From: Eledone cirrhosa | Taxonomy: Eukaryota | Length of the DNA: 64,000 nucleotides | Assembly: GCA_964016885.1 (NCBI GenBank) | Contig: CAXHJY010001027.1 | Coordinates: 1-64,000, forward strand | Reading direction: 5' to 3' | Shown here: piece after piece, positions 801 through 61,202 of the stretch | Position numbering within the stretch: the first letter of the stretch is position 1 | Layout: every line of letters starts with the position of its first letter | Made by a program: the position numbers and the translations under genes | The notes under the pieces: model-generated | What the model was told of the DNA's origin: nothing | The model's database searches: none | The model's input: the letters and a program-made list of their open reading frames with translations, nothing else

Positions 801-1143
801 ACATGCGCATATAAGCATAAAGATACATATATATATATATATACAAATCTACTGTAAAACTCATTCTTTGATGTACTCATTGAATCTTGTTTAACTCTTT
901 AATATATACAAATATATATATATAGAGAGAGAGAGGTTTATATATATATATACAAACATATAGACACGTACTGTACAACTGCATAGCTGCATGCATATAT
1001 AAACACTCAGACATGACTATACAAACATACAAATATATATATATATAGAGAGAGAGGTTTATATATATATATACAAACATATAGACACGTACTGTACAAA
1101 TGCATAGATGCATGCATATATAAACACTCAGACATGACTATAC

Positions 1144-8998: not shown

Positions 8999-9039
8999 CG
9001 TTTCTGAATTTGTTTAGCAAGATTCTTTATCTGAAAACG

Positions 9040-9131
9040 TGGTTGTTTATATATTGTCAAAGTTCTTTCATCACACATTCTGAGGTCACAGAATGTGTGA
9101 TGAAAGAACTTTGACAATATATAAACAACCA
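9040..9131. repeat. Perfect 43-bp-arm palindrome with 6-nt loop (HHR-like stem II/GAAA at the axis)
   Basis: 9040-9082 is the exact reverse complement of 9089-9131. Confidence 0.9.
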
Positions 9132-18590: not shown

Positions 18591-18730
18591 ATAGGGGAAA
18601 AGTCAGGACCCCAACGGCTGAGCTCCGGCTGTTTCGACAGGTAGATCCGAACTAACTGTCGAAAAACAGCCAGAGCTCGGCCGTAGGGGTCACGGTCCAC
18701 CTGGTTTATTACCACACCTTCTTTATTATA
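18591..18730. mobile_element. Penelope-like/retrozyme-type element, fold-back centred on an HHR-like stem II
   Basis: Imperfect palindrome 18607-18691 with axis gacag...ctgtc followed by GAAA on both strands. Same family as 3591-3755. Confidence 0.6.
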
Positions 18731-23116: not shown

Positions 23117-24801
23117 TATTCATTTATATATATATACATATATTTATATATATACATTTATATATATATATATATATCTTGGCAAGTTAATGGCCTTGAA
23201 CGTGTTTCTTACGACTAATAAATGCCATACATATATGGTAACAATGGAGTTTGTCACAGACAATAGTTGATTCCATCAAAGTCAACCCTTCTCTTTGATC
23301 CGCTATCACTAAATATATTTTCACACAGATCTCTCTTTGAGTGTCGTTAAACAGAAATATTATGCCCTCGTTTTATCTCCTAATAGCTCCGATGTTGAAG
23401 AACAGTTTTTGAAAATTTTAGAAAAATAGCTTCCTATGTGATTTAGAATTTTCGTTTTTGTTGCTCCATTTTTCTTAGTTTTTTTTTTTTCTTTCTTTGT
23501 GGGTTCTGGTGGGGTGGCTGTGGGGTTTTGTGGGTGCATATGAGTGCCTAGGTAGGTGTTTTCAATTGTATATATGGTGGCTTGTGTTTACTGTTCAACT
23601 TGTGTGGTTAACATTGTAGGTTCTTTCAGCTTCATAGCTAGCTAAAGCCTGTGTGTATGTATTTATATGTATATATATATGTGTGTGTGTATATATGTAT
23701 ATATATTTGTATATATATGTATATATATATATATGTATATATTTGTATATATATATATGTATATATATTTGTATATATATATATATATATGTGTGCGTGT
23801 GTTTTCAGTAAATAATTACACTATTACCCCTTTCGTTACTATAATTCTAATGAAAGACACAGTTTATGATTTTTCAAATAATTTTTTTTAAATAATAAAG
23901 AATCTGTTTATGTCTGCATAATTTAACAAAGGTTTTTACATAAAATAATGGTGGAAAGTTTTAAATAAGTTTAAGCAGAAAATAATGAATTGACTTTTGC
24001 AATCCATTTTATGAATGATAAAGTAGAAAATCAAACTTTCCAGTTGTTGTCTTCCTTGACTCTTTTGAATTACCTTCACAGAAAATAGTGCATTGAGTAG
24101 TGACCTCTAACCTCAGAGAACATAGCACATTGACTCTGGTGGAGTAATTTCACAGAAAGTAGTGCACTGAGGCTGTAAAGGAGTGAACTCACAGAAAATA
24201 GTGCATTGACTCCAGTGGAATAATTTCAAAGAAAGTAGTGCAGTGAGTCTGACAGGAAGTATTGATTCCAGTGGAGTAGTTCGATACTCATCTTTCTCCA
24301 TTTCTTTGGGGGTTCTAAACCCCACTATCAGGCTAAATTGTCTTTAGTCTTAAATACAGCTTAACTCTGTATTGTTAAAATAATGACATATTTTGTAAGA
24401 TTACCAGTTCTAAAGACCTATTTCTTTATAAAATGCCAACCAAATAGTTATTTAAGTTTAACTTCTTTATAAAATGCCAAATAGATTTTATTTTTATTTT
24501 TTCTATTAAGTTTCACTTTTTTTTATAAAATGCCAAATAGTTTGAATTTTTTTTTTAATTTTTTCTTTGATTTTGATTTTTTTTTCTATTTACTAACCTT
24601 TCGTTTATATATTTATTTATTATATATAATTGCTAAGACAATAATAATAATCTACAGAATTAAATGTTTCCTTTTAAAATATTTTAAATACTAGTTTTAT
24701 TTACTGAGTTAAGTGTATGAAACCTCTAATTACACATAATCATTCCTCATTAAAGTTGCTTGCTTGTCTTATAGTTTAAACTAGCCACTTTTTCTAGTGA
24801 C

Positions 24802-27450: not shown

Positions 27451-27670
27451 TAAAGTGTTAACTTTAATATATATATATTAAAGTCTAACCCATGCTAGCG
27501 TGGAAGAACGGACGTAAAACGGTGATGATGATGTTAAACGATATTCAATGATTATGTCAAAGAAAGAGTTTTACAGTAGATTGGAAGCACTCTACAGTAA
27601 AATAATTTTCTGGAGTTATTAATGTTAAAATATAAATATTAATAAAATAGATGTTCTTTTGATCAATTAC

Positions 27671-27723
27671 ATTTTATTATATATATTTCGAATGTGCAAC
27701 AGTACGTCCTCATCAGACAAAAT
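27671..27723 (-). ncRNA. Type I hammerhead ribozyme
   Basis: ATTTTGT-CTGATGA-GGACGTAC(tgtt)GCACATTC-GAA-ATATATAT-A-ATAAAAT. A 3' fragment of the same family lies at about 845-900. Confidence 0.7.
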
Positions 27724-27796
27724 ATAATGATACATAACATAACCTGGGATGTTAAATGGTTAAGATTTAATCAAGGTATATATATATATATGTATA

Positions 27797-29365: not shown

Positions 29366-29709
29366 GGAGGCACATGGCTTAGTAGTTAGAGCATTGGCCT
29401 TGCAATCGAAAGGTTGTGAGTTCAATTCTCAGACTGGGTGATGTGTTGTTTCCTTGAGCAAGACACTTTATTTCACATTGCTCCAGTTTACTCAGCTGTA
29501 GAAATGAGATGATAGGAACTGGGGTCCCTATCATTCCACTGCAAAGTGGTCGTGGAGGTGCCACGGCAAAAAAGCACCCAGCACTCACTGTAAATGAGGT
29601 TGGTGTTAGGAGGGGCATCCAGCTGTAGAAATCAAGCCAGAATCAGTTCCCGTCGCACCCTTGCAAGCAGGGAAAAAGCGGACGTAAAATGAAATGAATG
29701 ATGAAAATG
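29366..29709 (+). mobile_element. Full-length SINE family A with apparent 19-bp flanking duplication
   Basis: atatagttataggaataac occurs at 29334-29352 and 29710-29728. Confidence 0.9.
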
Positions 29710-29710
29710 A

Positions 29711-29890
29711 TATAGTTATAGGAATAACCAAAGAGTGCTTAGAAATACATTGTTTTATTAGCTAGCAGTGTTTCATCCATACACCATGGCAGGAATCATC
29801 AGAGCCTATAAACAAGAGTATATCAGTAGTTGCATGCTCCATCGAGCTGCGCACCTGAACAAGGTTAAAGGACCAGCAGGGGGTCCCGAG
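29711..29890 (-). mobile_element. HHR-bearing Penelope-like element, family H2 (left arm of an inverted pair)
   Basis: Reverse complement of 30218-30388 and 60070-60248. CTGATGA...GAAAC at 29760-29806; cleavage triplet mutated to GCT. Confidence 0.7.
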
Positions 29891-30217: not shown

Positions 30218-30388
30218 ATGCTGGTCCTTTAACCTTGTTCTGGTGACGCAGCTCGATGGAGCATGTAACTACTGATATATTCATGTTTATAGGCTCTGAT
30301 GATTCCTGCCATGGTGTATGGATGAAACACTGTTAGCTAATAAAACAATGTATTTCTAAGCACTCTTTGGTTATTCCTATAACTATAA
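30218..30388 (+). mobile_element. HHR-bearing Penelope-like element, family H2 (right arm)
   Basis: GGCT-CTGATGA-tTCC...GGAt-GAA-AC(act)GT-T-AGCT at 30292-30338, then AATAAA and a TA-rich end. Confidence 0.7.
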
Positions 30389-30510
30389 TGGCTCTGTAGT
30401 ATTCTATTTATCCTACATTGAGCTAAAACCACACTGTCATACCAAGGACAATATATCTGCATGTCTGGGCATATTGATATATTTGTTAACGAAACTATAT
30501 ATATGTATAA

Positions 30511-33386: not shown

Positions 33387-33654
33387 GGTGGGTGTAGCTC
33401 CTCCTAGAGCTCAGCTTTCTCTACTTATGTGTAGCTTCCATATCTATACCCTTGAGAAAGCTTGCTACATACAAGCCGACACTGCTGGGTATCGTGGTCA
33501 TGATTACACCTTCCTAGCCAGAAACAGTCCTATATGAGCAAGACACAGTCACGTGACCCAACTTGCCTCAAATGGTGCAACCCGTCTAACCCGGAAAGAG
33601 GACATCAAACGATGATGATGATATATATATATATATATATATGTTCAAATCTCA

Positions 33655-33713
33655 GCTGTCTGATGAAGTCATAGCTGTTGCATAATAGTTATCACCGAAA
33701 TATATATAACAGC
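33655..33713 (+). ncRNA. Intact-looking type I hammerhead ribozyme
   Basis: GCTGT-CTGATGA-aGTcATAGCTGTT(gcat)AATAGTTATcACc-GAA-ATATATAT-A-ACAGC. Perfect 5-bp stem I, long stem II, palindromic stem III; AATAAA follows. Confidence 0.8.
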
Positions 33714-33789
33714 GACTATGAATAAATAAAGTTAATTTTAACCTGTTGACTTACACTTCTTGTTTATATCTATATTTGCTTTGCTTTGG

Positions 33790-34085
33790 CCCCACTCGGT
33801 CATCCGAGGCTCAAGCCTGGGCTGTTTGTTTTGTGGAAGACCAGTAGTTGCCCATGCATACCAGTCTCCCCTCTCCACGCCACTGATGCTGTCCAAGGGA
33901 AAGACAATGACCAATACAGATTGGCACTAGTGACGTCACAACTCATTTCTACAGCTGAGTAAACTGGAGCAACGTGAAATAAAGTCTCTTGCTCAAGGAC
34001 ACAACGCATCACCCTGTCCGAGAATCGAACTCACAACCTTTCAATTGCAAGCCCAATGTTCTAACTACTAAGCCATGTGCCTTCA
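33790..34085 (-). mobile_element. tRNA-derived SINE with the family A head and core but a different 3' body
   Basis: Head and core match 18440-18577; the body diverges after the core. Confidence 0.8.
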
Positions 34086-48352: not shown

Positions 48353-48616
48353 TATATCACAGAAAAAAGAGAATCAATGTTGCGATGAAAGGAATTTATT
48401 GGACATGTTACAAATGTTTCTTGGGTGACCAGCTCGAGGCACGATCGATGGGGTGATCACCACATCGATCGTGCCTCGAGCTGGTCACCACATCGATCGT
48501 GTCTCGAGCTGGTCACCACATCGATCGTGTCTCGAGCTGGTCACCCAAGAAACATTTGTAATATGTCCAATAAATTCCTTTCATCGCAACATTGATTCTC
48601 TTTTTTCTGTGATATA
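48353..48616. mobile_element. Fold-back element with about 100-bp arms and three internal 28-bp tandem units; HHR 3' half in each arm
   Basis: Arms are near-perfect reverse complements. GAAACATTTGTA at 48549-48560 matches the stem III/cleavage site of the HHR at 46221-46232. Confidence 0.75.
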
Positions 48617-52959: not shown

Positions 52960-53079
52960 AGTTTTAATATAGATGAGATTCTACAGGACTAGAACTGTTT
53001 CATTCTTTAGAAATCATCTGATGATTTCTAAAGAATGAAACAGTTCTAGTCCTGTAGAATCTCATCTATATTAAAACTT
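52959..53079. repeat. Perfect 60-bp-arm palindrome centred in CTGATGA (family H3)
   Basis: 52959-53018 is the exact reverse complement of 53020-53079. Confidence 0.9.
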
Positions 53080-59153: not shown

Positions 59154-59236
59154 ATAATAATAAATTTGAAGACTAAAATCCAAAGAGGGCCCGATAAGGA
59201 TAAATAAATATCAAATATATAAGAACCGTAGAGCAA

Positions 59237-59381
59237 ATATTTATTAAAATAACAGATTAAAGTTTAAGCAAAGAATCGCTGCTTTCACCCTTAACGGGAT
59301 CTTCTGAAGCTCAGAAGATTCCGTTAAGGGTAAAAGCAGCGATTCTTTGCTTAAACTTTAATCTGTTATTTTAATAAATAT
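59237..59381. repeat. 71-bp-arm palindrome (2 mismatches, 3-nt loop) with an HHR-like remnant at the axis
   Basis: The left arm on the minus strand reads CAGAAGA-tCCC(gttaa)GGGt-GAAA. Confidence 0.85.
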
Positions 59382-59711
59382 ATATATATATATATATACA
59401 ACGATGAATTTGTGTTGGAGAGATGCTGTGCTGAATAGGACCCGTCCAACCCTTGCAAGCAGGGAAAAGCGGACGTAAAATGATGATGATGATGATATAT
59501 ACATATATACATATATATATATACATTATATATATGTAAGTATGTTTTGAAACAGTGAGCAGGTTTGAAATTAGAAAATAGAATAGCTTTCACCGTATTT
59601 TTGACTAAAGGAATTTTAGCCTGATGATGGGGTTTAGAACCCTCAGATAAATGGAAAAAGATGAGTATTGACGTATATATATATATATATATTTATATAT
59701 GTGTGTGTGTG

Positions 59712-59989
59712 CAAAAGGCAAACAGAAATAACAAAACAAACAACACAGTACAACAAAGAAATATATTATTAGGTTTATGCTTGATATAGTAAGAAAAGAG
59801 TCTTGACGTTTCTGACACTAGTCCTTCATCAGAAAATAGAATGAGAAATTAAAGAAGAAACAGAAAGAGTGAGGAGACAGGCAAGGTGGAAACGGAAACA
59901 ATTTTTTTAGAGAAAAAATAATTGATGTTGACATCTCTTGGAAAACTGGTGATGCTGGCAGTTTGTGTAGGATATAGTTTTTTTGAAAA

Positions 59990-59990
<1 letters not shown>
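59712..59990 (-). mobile_element. Penelope-like element family H1 (diverged) with HHR at 59801-59836, canonical GUC site
   Basis: TTTT-CTGATGA-agGAC(tagt)GTCa-GAAACGTC-AAGA. Confidence 0.75.
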
Positions 59991-60021
<31 letters not shown>

Positions 60022-60029
<8 letters not shown>

Positions 60030-60245
60030 TTGACAAATATATCAATATGCCCAGACATGTAGATGGCCTCAGGACCCCCCTGCTGGTCATTTAACCTTGT
60101 TCTGGTGACGCAGCTCGATGGAGCATGCAACTACTGATATACTCATGTTTATAGGCTCTGATGATTCCTGACAGGGTGTATGGATGAAACACTGTTAGCT
60201 AATAAAACAATGTATTTCTAAGCACTCTTTGGTTATTCCTATAAC

Positions 60246-60248
<3 letters not shown>
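60022..60248 (+). mobile_element. Penelope-like element family H2 (longest copy), HHR at 60154-60200
   Basis: Matches 30218-30388. Its 5' part matches the reverse complement of 30457-30500. TA flanks on both sides. Confidence 0.7.
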
Positions 60249-60277
<29 letters not shown>

Positions 60278-61202
60278 GTGGTGGAGATGGGGCTAGTTAT
60301 GTTGGTACTGATGTTGTTGTTGCTGTTGGTTGTGGTATAGGTGGTGTTATTGTTGTTAGTAGTGGTGGTGGTGGTATGTTGTTAGTAGTAGTGGTAGTGG
60401 TGGTGGTGGTGTGTTGTTAGTAGTAGTGGTGGTGGTGGTGGTGTTTGTTTGAGACATGGTAGGGAGGATGGAGAAGAGAGAAAGAGAGCGATGATGTTTT
60501 TGGTGTTGGTGGTGATGTAGGTGGTACTATTGTTTGAGACATGGCAGTGGTGGGGGAGAGAGAGAGAGAGAGCTTTAGATATGGTGGTGATGATGGTGAT
60601 GATGATGTAGGTGGTGCTGTTGTTTGTTTGAGACATGGCAATGTTTGGGAAAGGTTGGAGGAGAGGAAAAAGAGACAGAGACAGACTTTGATGGGGGGCG
60701 GGTCTGTTATATCTGCCGCGGGGTGGGTGGAGAGACAATGAGACAGAGAAATGGTGTGGTGTTTATTATATCTGGTGGGGAGAGAGAGAGGTGGTGGGGA
60801 GAGAGAGAAGTGGTGGTGTTTATTATATCTGCGTGAGGAGAGGCATGTGGTGGTGTGGTGGTATTTATTATATCTGCCACCTTTGTAAAATTAGTGCAAG
60901 TCTGCTCTGTTTTATGATGAGTAACTTCAGGTTTATTTCATTATTTTAACTTTAAAAATTTTACTTTTCTTTCCCCCCAGAAATAGATTTTTACAATTTC
61001 TTTAGTTTCTTTCTTTGTTTTGTTTCCGTCTTTGTTTGTTTTGTGGTAAGGGGTGGGTGGGTGGTGTTTATTATTATTATTATTGCTGTTGTTGTTGTTG
61101 TTTTGTTTTGTTTTAATTGAATTTCATTTGATGAGGTTATCTTGTTTTATGTTTTAGTTTAATGTATGTTTGTGTGTATGTGTATATATATATATATGTG
61201 TT

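What the first reader, a model, noticed from the sequence alone, without database searches (positions are those of the whole stretch)
33655..33713. Best intact hammerhead; its stem III is itself an (AT)4 microsatellite
Seen: perfect GCTGT/ACAGC stem I, CTGATGA, about 11-bp stem II, then GAA-ATATATAT-A. The otherwise dissimilar HHR at 27671-27723 has the same ATATATAT stem III. Inference: the self-complementary (AT)4 allows dimeric cleavage. It would also leave an (AU)n end on the upstream cleavage product that matches the (TA)n DNA these elements occupy, a possible link between ribozyme and target choice.
Basis: partly seen in the sequence, partly recalled or inferred. Interest (0 to 1): 0.7.

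Follow-up and report, generated by a model that had tools for sequence, protein, structure and literature searches.

The report
Ordinary Penelope-type hammerhead in TA repeats
This is a real hammerhead-ribozyme sequence inside a short, truncated copy of a common repeat that is likely the end of a Penelope-type jumping gene; its AT-repeat arm likely just lets two ribozymes pair up, as already described, and related copies mostly end about 60 bases past the predicted cut, so the arm probably does not choose the landing site.

Summary
The motif is real. 33655-33713 is a type I hammerhead with an intact core, a 5-bp stem I and an ATATATAT stem III; the predicted cut is after A33708. The descriptor finds 7 hits in the window against 0.045 in shuffles. 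It lies inside a 5'-truncated, roughly 125-bp copy of a high-copy repeat: 1623 and 672 contigs were laid in 2 of 4 runs. The palindrome is conserved, but a short palindromic stem III used for dimer cleavage is the published norm for Penelope-like-element hammerheads (PMC4209133).

The proposed link to target choice is not supported. This copy was written through the cut site. The listed (AT)n junctions of relatives lie 61-67 nt downstream, none at the cut (12 of 276 rows shown). Three other hammerhead families in the window also abut (TA)n/(CA)n, have non-AT stems III, and end 53-92 nt past their cuts. An unrelated family has the same ATATATAT stem yet sits in non-microsatellite DNA. ATATATAT is 41 of 88 A-starting 8-nt palindromes in the window's unmasked DNA.

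Cleavage is untested and no encoding ORF was seen. The scan reported a similar case on another genome (e1-7882047). Ordinary; new member of a known kind.

The parts
33621..33642 (.). (AT)11 tract; left flank and likely target DNA at the 5'-truncation junction
   Evidence: sequence; relatives in runs X1 and X4 carry shared T-rich letters here instead (table 7)
33642..33764 (+). 5'-truncated copy of a high-copy repeat, likely a Penelope-like pseudo-LTR; right end uncertain by a few bases
   Evidence: 1623 (X1) and 672 (X4) contigs laid over 33642-33779, depth near zero from 33780
33642..33647 (+). distal stem I, 5' arm (predicted to pair with 33719-33724)
   Evidence: MFE, centroid and pair probabilities 0.79-0.96
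33655..33659 (+). stem I, 5' arm GCTGT
   Evidence: no variant at 3% or more in X1
33660..33666 (+). catalytic core CTGATGA (C3-A9)
   Evidence: no variant at 3% or more in X1
33667..33696 (+). extra A between positions 9 and 10.1, then long stem II (11 pairs, one C.C mismatch, GCAT loop)
   Evidence: the 4 stem variants at 5% or more in X1 all keep pairing
33697..33699 (+). core GAA (G12-A14)
   Evidence: G33697A in 7-8% of depth, at a CpG
33700..33707 (+). stem III: perfect palindrome ATATATAT (2 bp + tetraloop as monomer, 8 bp as predicted dimer)
   Evidence: conserved in X1
33708..33708 (+). N17 = A; predicted cleavage between 33708 and 33709
   Evidence: hammerhead numbering (established knowledge) applied; not assayed
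33709..33724 (+). stem I 3' arm ACAGC (33709-13), internal loop, distal arm (33719-24)
33765..33775 (.). TATATCTATAT: likely remnant of (TA)n target at the true 3' junction, 57-67 nt past the predicted cut
   Evidence: relatives run into (AT)n at 33769/33775 or continue into shared non-repeat letters at 33765/33768 (table 7)
27666..27728 (-). second type I hammerhead with the same ATATATAT stem III (core starts at 27716, predicted cut after 27678); stem II decayed; element continues about 145 nt past the cut
   Evidence: 27533-27582 matches 846-895 at 88%

Best explanation
This is a type I hammerhead motif in the middle of a 5'-truncated copy of a high-copy repeat that is likely the pseudo-LTR of a Penelope-like retroelement; its ATATATAT stem III likely serves only as the palindrome for predicted dimeric self-cleavage, and the element's protein, not the ribozyme cut, likely sets the (TA)n landing site. 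Steps. (1) Shown: motif, repeat family, junction positions. (2) Inferred from PMC4209133: two ribozymes in a tandem transcript swap stem III strands to form an 8-bp helix and cut weakly after A33708. (3) Inferred from PMC11167929: the GIY-YIG endonuclease nicks AT-rich DNA, and reverse transcription starts inside uncleaved RNA about 56-67 nt downstream of the cut, or further on for tail-bearing copies. It copies through the ribozyme and here stopped about 66 nt upstream of the cut, joining to (AT)11. (4) Inferred: (AT)4 is used because it is the most accessible palindrome in AT-rich, slippage-prone DNA.
For: This copy holds 66 nt upstream and about 56 nt downstream of the cut, so it was not templated by the upstream cleavage product. 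All 16 longest contig pieces listed cross the cut; the listed (AT)n loose ends are at 33769 (23 contigs) and 33775 (43 in X1, 20 in X4); a second class continues into shared non-repeat letters at 33765/33768 (40; 22). Window families A, B and C (3, 3 and 2 copies) have stems III ACGT, ACACTGT and a 16-nt hairpin and share sequence for 92, 53 and 84 nt past the cut; 6 of these 8 copies then run into (TA)n/(CA)n, one B copy continues as a tail and one meets other DNA. An unrelated family in metagenome contigs (24 loci, 11 distinct flank sets) has the same ATATATAT stem III and no (TA)5 tract other than stem III itself; in 6 of 9 loci tested a 10-13-bp flanking direct repeat (at most 1 mismatch) starts 56-62 nt past the cut. 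In L105 and L111, sister copies swap ATATATAT for other palindromes (ATACGTAT, ACATGT); in L097 and L116 it has expanded by slippage. ATATATAT is 41 of 88 A-starting 8-nt palindromes in the TRF-unmasked window. Published features match: extra base between 9 and 10.1, long helix II, palindromic helix III, mostly solo copies (PMC4209133). In vitro, a Poseidon element starts reverse transcription internally at sites not homologous to the target, and ribozyme-dead mutants insert normally (PMC11167929).
Against: No RT or GIY-YIG remnant: 0 of 95 non-repeat ORFs reached a Pfam cutoff and none matched those families, so the Penelope assignment rests on non-coding hallmarks. The window's own genome is not held; runs X1 and X4 hold only 0.30 and 0.18 of the words and may be related species, and runs X5 and X7 laid nothing. 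264 of 276 loose-end rows were not shown. Depth dips 21% (X1) and 23% (X4) from bin 33703-09 to bin 33710-16 before recovering, and one X4 loose end (12 contigs, AT-rich but not (AT)n) sits at 33712. Contig depth is a crude measure. The catalytic stem II register is disfavoured, so activity is uncertain. PMC11167929 concerns one Poseidon element, not this family.
Confidence: 0.8

Rival explanations
1. One reading: self-cleavage leaves an (AU)4A 3' end that anneals to nicked (TA)n DNA and primes reverse transcription, so the ribozyme selects the target as the main pathway.
For: The geometry is right: the upstream product would end in AUAUAUAUA. (AT)4 is conserved, occurs in two hammerheads here, and the copy is flanked by (AT)11 and a TA-rich remnant. 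A precedent exists: Terminon hammerheads expose adjacent telomeric repeats for pairing (PMC6431247 passage).
Against: It predicts copies ending at 33708 without the 3' arm of stem I. None of the 10 window copies does, and no core runs straight into (TA)5. Listed (AT)n junctions lie 61-67 nt downstream, and depth lost between 33697 and 33709 is only about 14% (X1) and 11% (X4). (TA)n-abutting families lack the AT stem, and an AT-stem family lacks (TA)n flanks. 39% of unmasked window bases lie within 100 nt of a (TA)5 tract, so adjacency is cheap here. Hammerhead-less Naiads also prefer (TA)n (PMC8557442).
Confidence: 0.04
2. The repeat is a solo fragment of a non-LTR retrozyme (non-coding tandem unit of 170-400 nt that makes circular RNA), not a pseudo-LTR of an autonomous element.
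For: The extended stem I with an internal loop and the 2-bp helix III with a palindromic tetraloop resemble canonical type I motifs (PMC7229834 passages). No ORF in the window. Copying from a religated circle would also cross the cut.
Against: Single copy, no tandem unit in the window. Long helix II with an extra 5' base is the PLE pattern (PMC4209133). Clustered 3' ends with an optional continuation fit the PLE tail (PMC8557442 section 6).
Confidence: 0.12
3. The motif keeps hammerhead form but no longer cleaves in this family, because the base of stem II misfolds; it is kept for another pseudo-LTR role or by descent. This is compatible with the best explanation of where the copy came from.
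For: G33668 prefers C33695 (p = 0.29) to C33696 (p = 0.02), stem III pairs have p about 0 as monomer, and a core-disrupting pairing appears in the MFE. PLE hammerheads cleave poorly in vitro (PMC4209133).
Against: Core letters are conserved across copies except at a CpG, and common stem II variants keep pairing. The penalty is only about 2 kcal/mol. The PAc hammerhead cleaves when its protein is added (PMC11167929).
Confidence: 0.2
4. Chance match in microsatellite-rich DNA.
For: No Rfam hammerhead hit; overall fold no better than shuffles; core + (AT)4 alone occurs without stems in 47 of 48 viral and prokaryotic loci.
Against: 7 descriptor hits against 0.045 expected; membership of a high-copy family with conserved core and pairing.
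Confidence: 0.01

Closest known systems
Hammerhead variants in pseudo-LTRs of metazoan Penelope-like elements (Cervera & De la Pena 2014, PMC4209133), the form with a small palindromic helix III reported for Drosophila, rotifers, shrimps and mosquitoes
   Same: Type I topology, intact core, extra nucleotide between 9 and 10.1, long helix II, 5-bp proximal helix I, short palindromic helix III, dispersed solo copies, several families per genome.
   Different: Helix II is longer (11 pairs against 6-8) with a shifted base register; a distal stem I is predicted; no linked ORF was seen here.
Poseidon element PAc of Anolis (Frangieh et al. 2024, PMC11167929)
   Same: Genomic copies end at internal sites downstream of the hammerhead, in two end classes (with or without a tail); AT-rich targets.
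   Different: PAc's ORF starts inside stem II; no ORF is evident here. This family's junctions run into (TA)n, more like the Neptune/Naiad bias described in PMC8557442. Clade not determined.
Non-LTR retrozymes and newt/axolotl satellite hammerheads (PMC7229834; bioRxiv 10.64898/2026.07.22.740005)
   Same: Type I hammerhead with weak palindromic helix III that works as a dimer; non-coding.
   Different: Those are tandem 170-400-nt units; this is a lone truncated copy with a long helix II.
Terminon/Athena 3'-terminal hammerhead plus reverse-complement telomeric repeat (PMC6431247 passage on Arkhipova et al. 2017)
   Different: There the repeat lies immediately downstream of the fold, at the element's 3' end, in endonuclease-less elements. 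Here the repeat is inside the fold, upstream of the cut, and the element ends about 56-67 nt further on.

Membership tests
Type I hammerhead ribozyme | Core CUGANGA ... GAAA ... UH | tested here: met
   CTGATGA 33660-66, GAAA 33697-700, U33707-A33708
Type I hammerhead ribozyme | Open-ended stem I flanking the core, closed stems II and III | tested here: met
   stem I 5 bp (p 0.66-0.72), stem II 9 stacked pairs (p 0.55-0.72); stem III only 2 bp as monomer, p about 0
Type I hammerhead ribozyme | G10.1-C11.1 pair next to the core | tested here: inconclusive
   possible as G33668-C33696 with a bulged C, about 2 kcal/mol above the preferred register
Type I hammerhead ribozyme | Match to an Rfam hammerhead model | tested here: not met
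   no hammerhead family among the 10 matches up to E = 10 in 33560-33820; not a defining failure, since the published PLE variants were found with custom descriptors (PMC4209133)
Type I hammerhead ribozyme | Self-cleavage 3' of N17 | not testable with these tools
   needs an in vitro assay
Penelope-like element pLTR hammerhead | Extra nucleotide between 9 and 10.1; long helix II; palindromic helix III | tested here: met
   A33667 has no variant at 3% or more in X1; 11-pair stem II; perfect palindrome
Penelope-like element pLTR hammerhead | Dispersed, high-copy, 5'-truncated insertions | tested here: met
   1623 and 672 contigs in 2 of 4 runs; shared upstream letters in relatives are replaced by (AT)11 in this copy
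Penelope-like element pLTR hammerhead | Two 3' end classes (optional 30-40-bp tail) downstream of the hammerhead | tested here: inconclusive
   two classes seen at 33765-33775, but the continuation's length is unknown and its consensus blurred (agreement 0.58-0.61)
Penelope-like element pLTR hammerhead | Linked ORF with telomerase-like RT and GIY-YIG endonuclease | tested here: inconclusive
   0 of 95 non-repeat ORFs of 55 aa or more match in the window; the genome is not held, so full-length copies could not be sought
Non-LTR retrozyme | Tandem 170-400-nt units each with a hammerhead | tested here: not met
   no second copy in 64 kb; other loci of the family not testable
Non-LTR retrozyme | Abundant linear and circular RNA | not testable with these tools
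   only contigs were available to lay
Terminon/Athena-type target-pairing terminus | Target-complementary repeat at the element's 3' end, downstream of the hammerhead | tested here: not met
   (AT)4 is upstream of the cut; the element continues about 56 nt or more

The most novel reading that the evidence does not exclude
A minor second pathway exists: after dimeric self-cleavage the (AU)4A end anneals to nicked (TA)n DNA and primes a minority of insertions (roughly one in seven at most, by crude contig depth), so one 8-nt palindrome is both the ribozyme's dimer switch and a target-pairing guide, a chromosome-internal counterpart of the Terminon telomere-pairing end.
Probability: 0.05. Interest if true: 0.6.

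Novelty: new member of a known kind. Interest (0 to 1): 0.15.

Why it matters
As found, it adds one more family, probably two, to the very large known set of Penelope-type hammerheads, and it gives a clean negative: the (AT)4 stem and the (TA)n target are separable, and copies end downstream of the cut, in line with internal initiation. If the minority pathway were real it would give these ribozymes, whose role is described as unclear (PMC8557442 passage), a direct part in integration. The one lead worth keeping is that the true 3' junctions may sit on a short TATA in the element (family B; possibly this family), which bears on how (TA)n-targeting elements prime.

Tried and rejected
Rfam over the whole window: the 150 of 579 rows shown were all microRNA-model noise on microsatellites. 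Position 9000 (minus strand, CGAAA into a long (TA)n) looked like a copy ending at the cut but has no CTGANGA in the preceding DNA; rejected. Viral (11 loci) and prokaryotic (37 loci) pattern hits: 0 and 1 pass a fold filter, treated as chance. No fetched locus (166) is homologous to the element; the only hit was a 22-nt AT-rich match to the 27716 element. Homology of the two (AT)4 elements beyond the ribozyme: not significant; a look-alike 7-mer about 60 nt past both cuts was noted, not counted. Pfam scan of 95 ORFs: no retroelement domain. No RNA holder listed. Runs X5 and X7 laid 0 contigs, no proof of absence. A 5'-junction role for (AT)4 (copies starting at the stem): no step up in depth and no listed loose end at 33700-09. 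Two script errors were superseded: a mis-registered distal stem and a too-lax repeat pattern, redone. 'A33667.C33696 is a mutation in this copy' was my first reading and was rejected. No look-alike in earlier scan findings by sequence.

Full report
Setting. The window is repeat-dominated animal-type DNA: 32,065 of 64,000 bases are masked by TRF, with 252 (TA)5+ tracts and many dispersed SINE-like repeats. These resemble Octopus repeats; that label is recalled and comes from no call. No genome is held.

Observation. The letters are as reported: GCTGT 33655-59, CTGATGA 33660-66, stem II 33667-96, GAA 33697-99, ATATATAT 33700-07, A33708, ACAGC 33709-13. The core + (AT)4 pattern matches twice in the window (33660+, 27716-) and never in 100 shuffles. 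A full type I descriptor gives 7 hits against a mean of 0.045 (max 1) in 200 local dinucleotide shuffles. Three more copies that this descriptor missed (29802-, 52406+, 53018+) belong to the same families by eye and alignment, making 10. Folding supports stem I, nine stacked pairs of stem II and an unreported distal stem I (33642-47/33719-24). It also shows weaknesses: the catalytic G10.1-C11.1 register is about 2 kcal/mol above the preferred one, monomeric stem III does not form, the 84-nt fold is no better than shuffles (z = -0.7), and Rfam gives no hammerhead hit. AUAUAUAU costs +4.7 kcal/mol as a hairpin and gains -3.2 as a self-duplex.

The family. Laying contigs of four public runs on 33640-33830 at 80% likeness placed 1623 (X1, organism A) and 672 (X4, organism B); X5 and X7 gave 0. 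These runs hold 0.30 and 0.18 of the words, so they show relatives, perhaps in related species, not this genome. Cover runs from 33642/33654 to about 33779. In X1 all 18 changes at 3% or more are listed, and none lies in 33655-33671 or 33700-33707. In X4, 5 of 43 changes are hidden (two A>G, one A>T, one C>A, one G>A), so the A positions of stem III cannot be fully cleared there. Most AT positions downstream are similarly quiet, so this reflects the master sequence, not proof of selection. Of 14 listed stem II variants, 8 keep pairing and 6 break it singly; the 4 at 5% or more in X1 all keep it, which transitions tend to do anyway. C>T and G>A changes peak at the two CpGs (33696/7, 33713/4). 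Upstream, relatives share T-rich letters where this copy has (AT)11, so the copy is 5'-truncated.

Test of the target link. If the cleavage product primed insertion, copies would stop at 33708 and run into (TA)n. This copy does not; it carries about 56 more bases, then TATATCTATAT. The loose ends listed for relatives run into (AT)n at 33769 (23 contigs) and 33775 (43 in X1, 20 in X4), or continue into shared non-repeat letters at 33765/33768 (40; 22). The 16 longest pieces listed (of 2327, chosen for length) all cross the cut. Against my reading: 264 of 276 loose-end rows are hidden; binned depth drops 21% and 23% just after the cut; per-base depth falls 40% (X1) and 31% (X4) from 33697 to a trough at 33714-16 before recovering; and 12 X4 contigs break off at 33712 into AT-rich, non-(AT)n letters. 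The trough coincides with the most variable bases, and only about 14% and 11% is lost by 33709. Contig depth is crude, so a minority pathway is not excluded. No core in the window runs directly into (TA)5.

Controls. In the window, families A (17475-, 54716+, 59832-), B (30296+, 29802-, 60158+) and C (52406+, 53018+) have stems III ACGT, ACACTGT and a 16-nt hairpin, and share sequence for 92, 53 and 84 nt past the cut. All three A copies, both C copies and B60158 then enter (TA)n/(CA)n; B30296 continues about 110 nt further and B29802 meets other DNA. So (TA)n occupancy does not need an AT stem. One family (24 loci, 11 distinct flank sets) is a roughly 100-bp element with an ATATATAT stem III. 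In 9 representatives, 6 have a 10-13-bp flanking direct repeat (at most 1 mismatch) starting 56-62 nt past the cut, 1 has an exact 13-bp repeat at 92 nt with an internal expansion, and 2 are unconvincing. So an AT stem does not imply a (TA)n target or an end at the cut. Sister copies in L105 and L111 carry other palindromes, and L097 and L116 show slippage expansion. ATATATAT is 41 of 88 A-starting 8-nt palindromes in unmasked window DNA (short microsatellite remnants are included), and 39% of unmasked bases lie within 100 nt of a (TA)5 tract. The two (AT)4 hammerheads may not be independent: they share an 8-mer in stem II (p = 0.005), though the elements do not align significantly.

Literature, with what I saw. 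PMC4209133 (abstract, Results, Discussion): short palindromic helix III, dimer mechanism, extra base between 9 and 10.1, long helix II, mostly solo motifs, low activity. PMC11167929 (parts 1-2 of 4: abstract, main text, start of methods): internal initiation at sites not homologous to the target; ribozyme mutants insert normally; no RNA reads begin or end at the cut. PMC8557442 (passages and section 6): (TA)n bias in hammerhead-less Naiads, hypothesised to come from an endonuclease linker; optional tail. PMC6431247 (passages): Terminon precedent. PMC7229834, PMC6765202, PMC3088659 (including the Figure S8 legend on palindromic stems III), PMC3846280 and PMC6155905: passages only. bioRxiv 10.64898/2026.07.22.740005: part 1 of 5. 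Lunse et al. 2016 was seen only as a reference title. Eight searches listed no paper whose title or abstract start proposes a stem III microsatellite as target guide or describes octopus hammerheads; the library lacks most subscription papers, and I opened no supplements, which may list ATATATAT stems (PMC4209133, PMC3088659). Hammerhead numbering and the importance of G10.1-C11.1 for catalysis are from my own knowledge, the latter echoed.

Verdict. A genuine hammerhead motif of the known Penelope type, probably weak and dimer-dependent, in a truncated copy of a high-copy family. The Penelope assignment is likely but lacks an ORF (0 of 95). The dimer idea is probably right and already published; the target-choice idea fails as the main pathway and survives only as an unexcluded minority route (about 5%). 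An earlier scan note on another genome (e1-7882047) reached a similar verdict; it is not independent evidence. Interest 0.15.

Noticed in passing
window 30380-30500 (+), 60240-60260 (+), 29705-29715 (-): Family B's major 3' junction falls on CTATA: the read-through copy continues ATGG, another copy continues as (TA)n. A short TATA at the real start site could give microhomology to the target. One family, three copies; this element's junction (33765-68) is also TATA-like.
   Followed up: partly
window 60026-60064 and 30455-30493: The far end of family B's long form appears inverted just upstream of the 60158 copy, the head-to-head arrangement typical of Penelope-like insertions.
   Followed up: partly
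window 52960-53078: Near-perfect 119-bp inverted repeat whose centre lies in the catalytic core of the family C hammerhead at 53018.
   Followed up: no
window 33659/33705 and 33660/33704 (table 5): One contig each in X1 and X4 changes strand between the two arms of stem I, as a template switch across the ribozyme would give.
   Followed up: no
window 59595-59671 (+) and 24281-24357 (-): A further two-copy repeat (84%) with a CTGATGA-like core and GGGGTT/AACCC hairpin but a degenerate GAAA side; possibly a decayed sixth hammerhead family.
   Followed up: partly
window 59200-60290: Several different repeat ends stacked within 1.1 kb, separated by (TA)n: a 129-bp hairpin, a SINE-like piece, the decayed motif, family A and family B.
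   Followed up: no
window 9040-9131, 18607-18691, 48358-48611, 59245-59373: Long inverted repeats, three of them next to (TA)n; 48358-48611 has 66-bp arms around a short internal tandem repeat.
   Followed up: no
window 846-895 and 27533-27582: A second, hammerhead-less fragment of the 27716 element's downstream part (88%), between (AT)n tracts.
   Followed up: partly
L052, L070, L073, L088, L090, L116, L140 (around the match): A roughly 100-bp hammerhead-only mobile element with 10-13-bp flanking direct repeats in animal-like DNA of metagenome contigs; a compact non-autonomous unit, used here only as a control.
   Followed up: partly
L097:1501-1550, L116:1501-1545: Stem III expanded to (AT)8 and about (AT)7 with the rest of the fold in place: the palindrome acts as a microsatellite seed and stays palindromic.
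   Followed up: no
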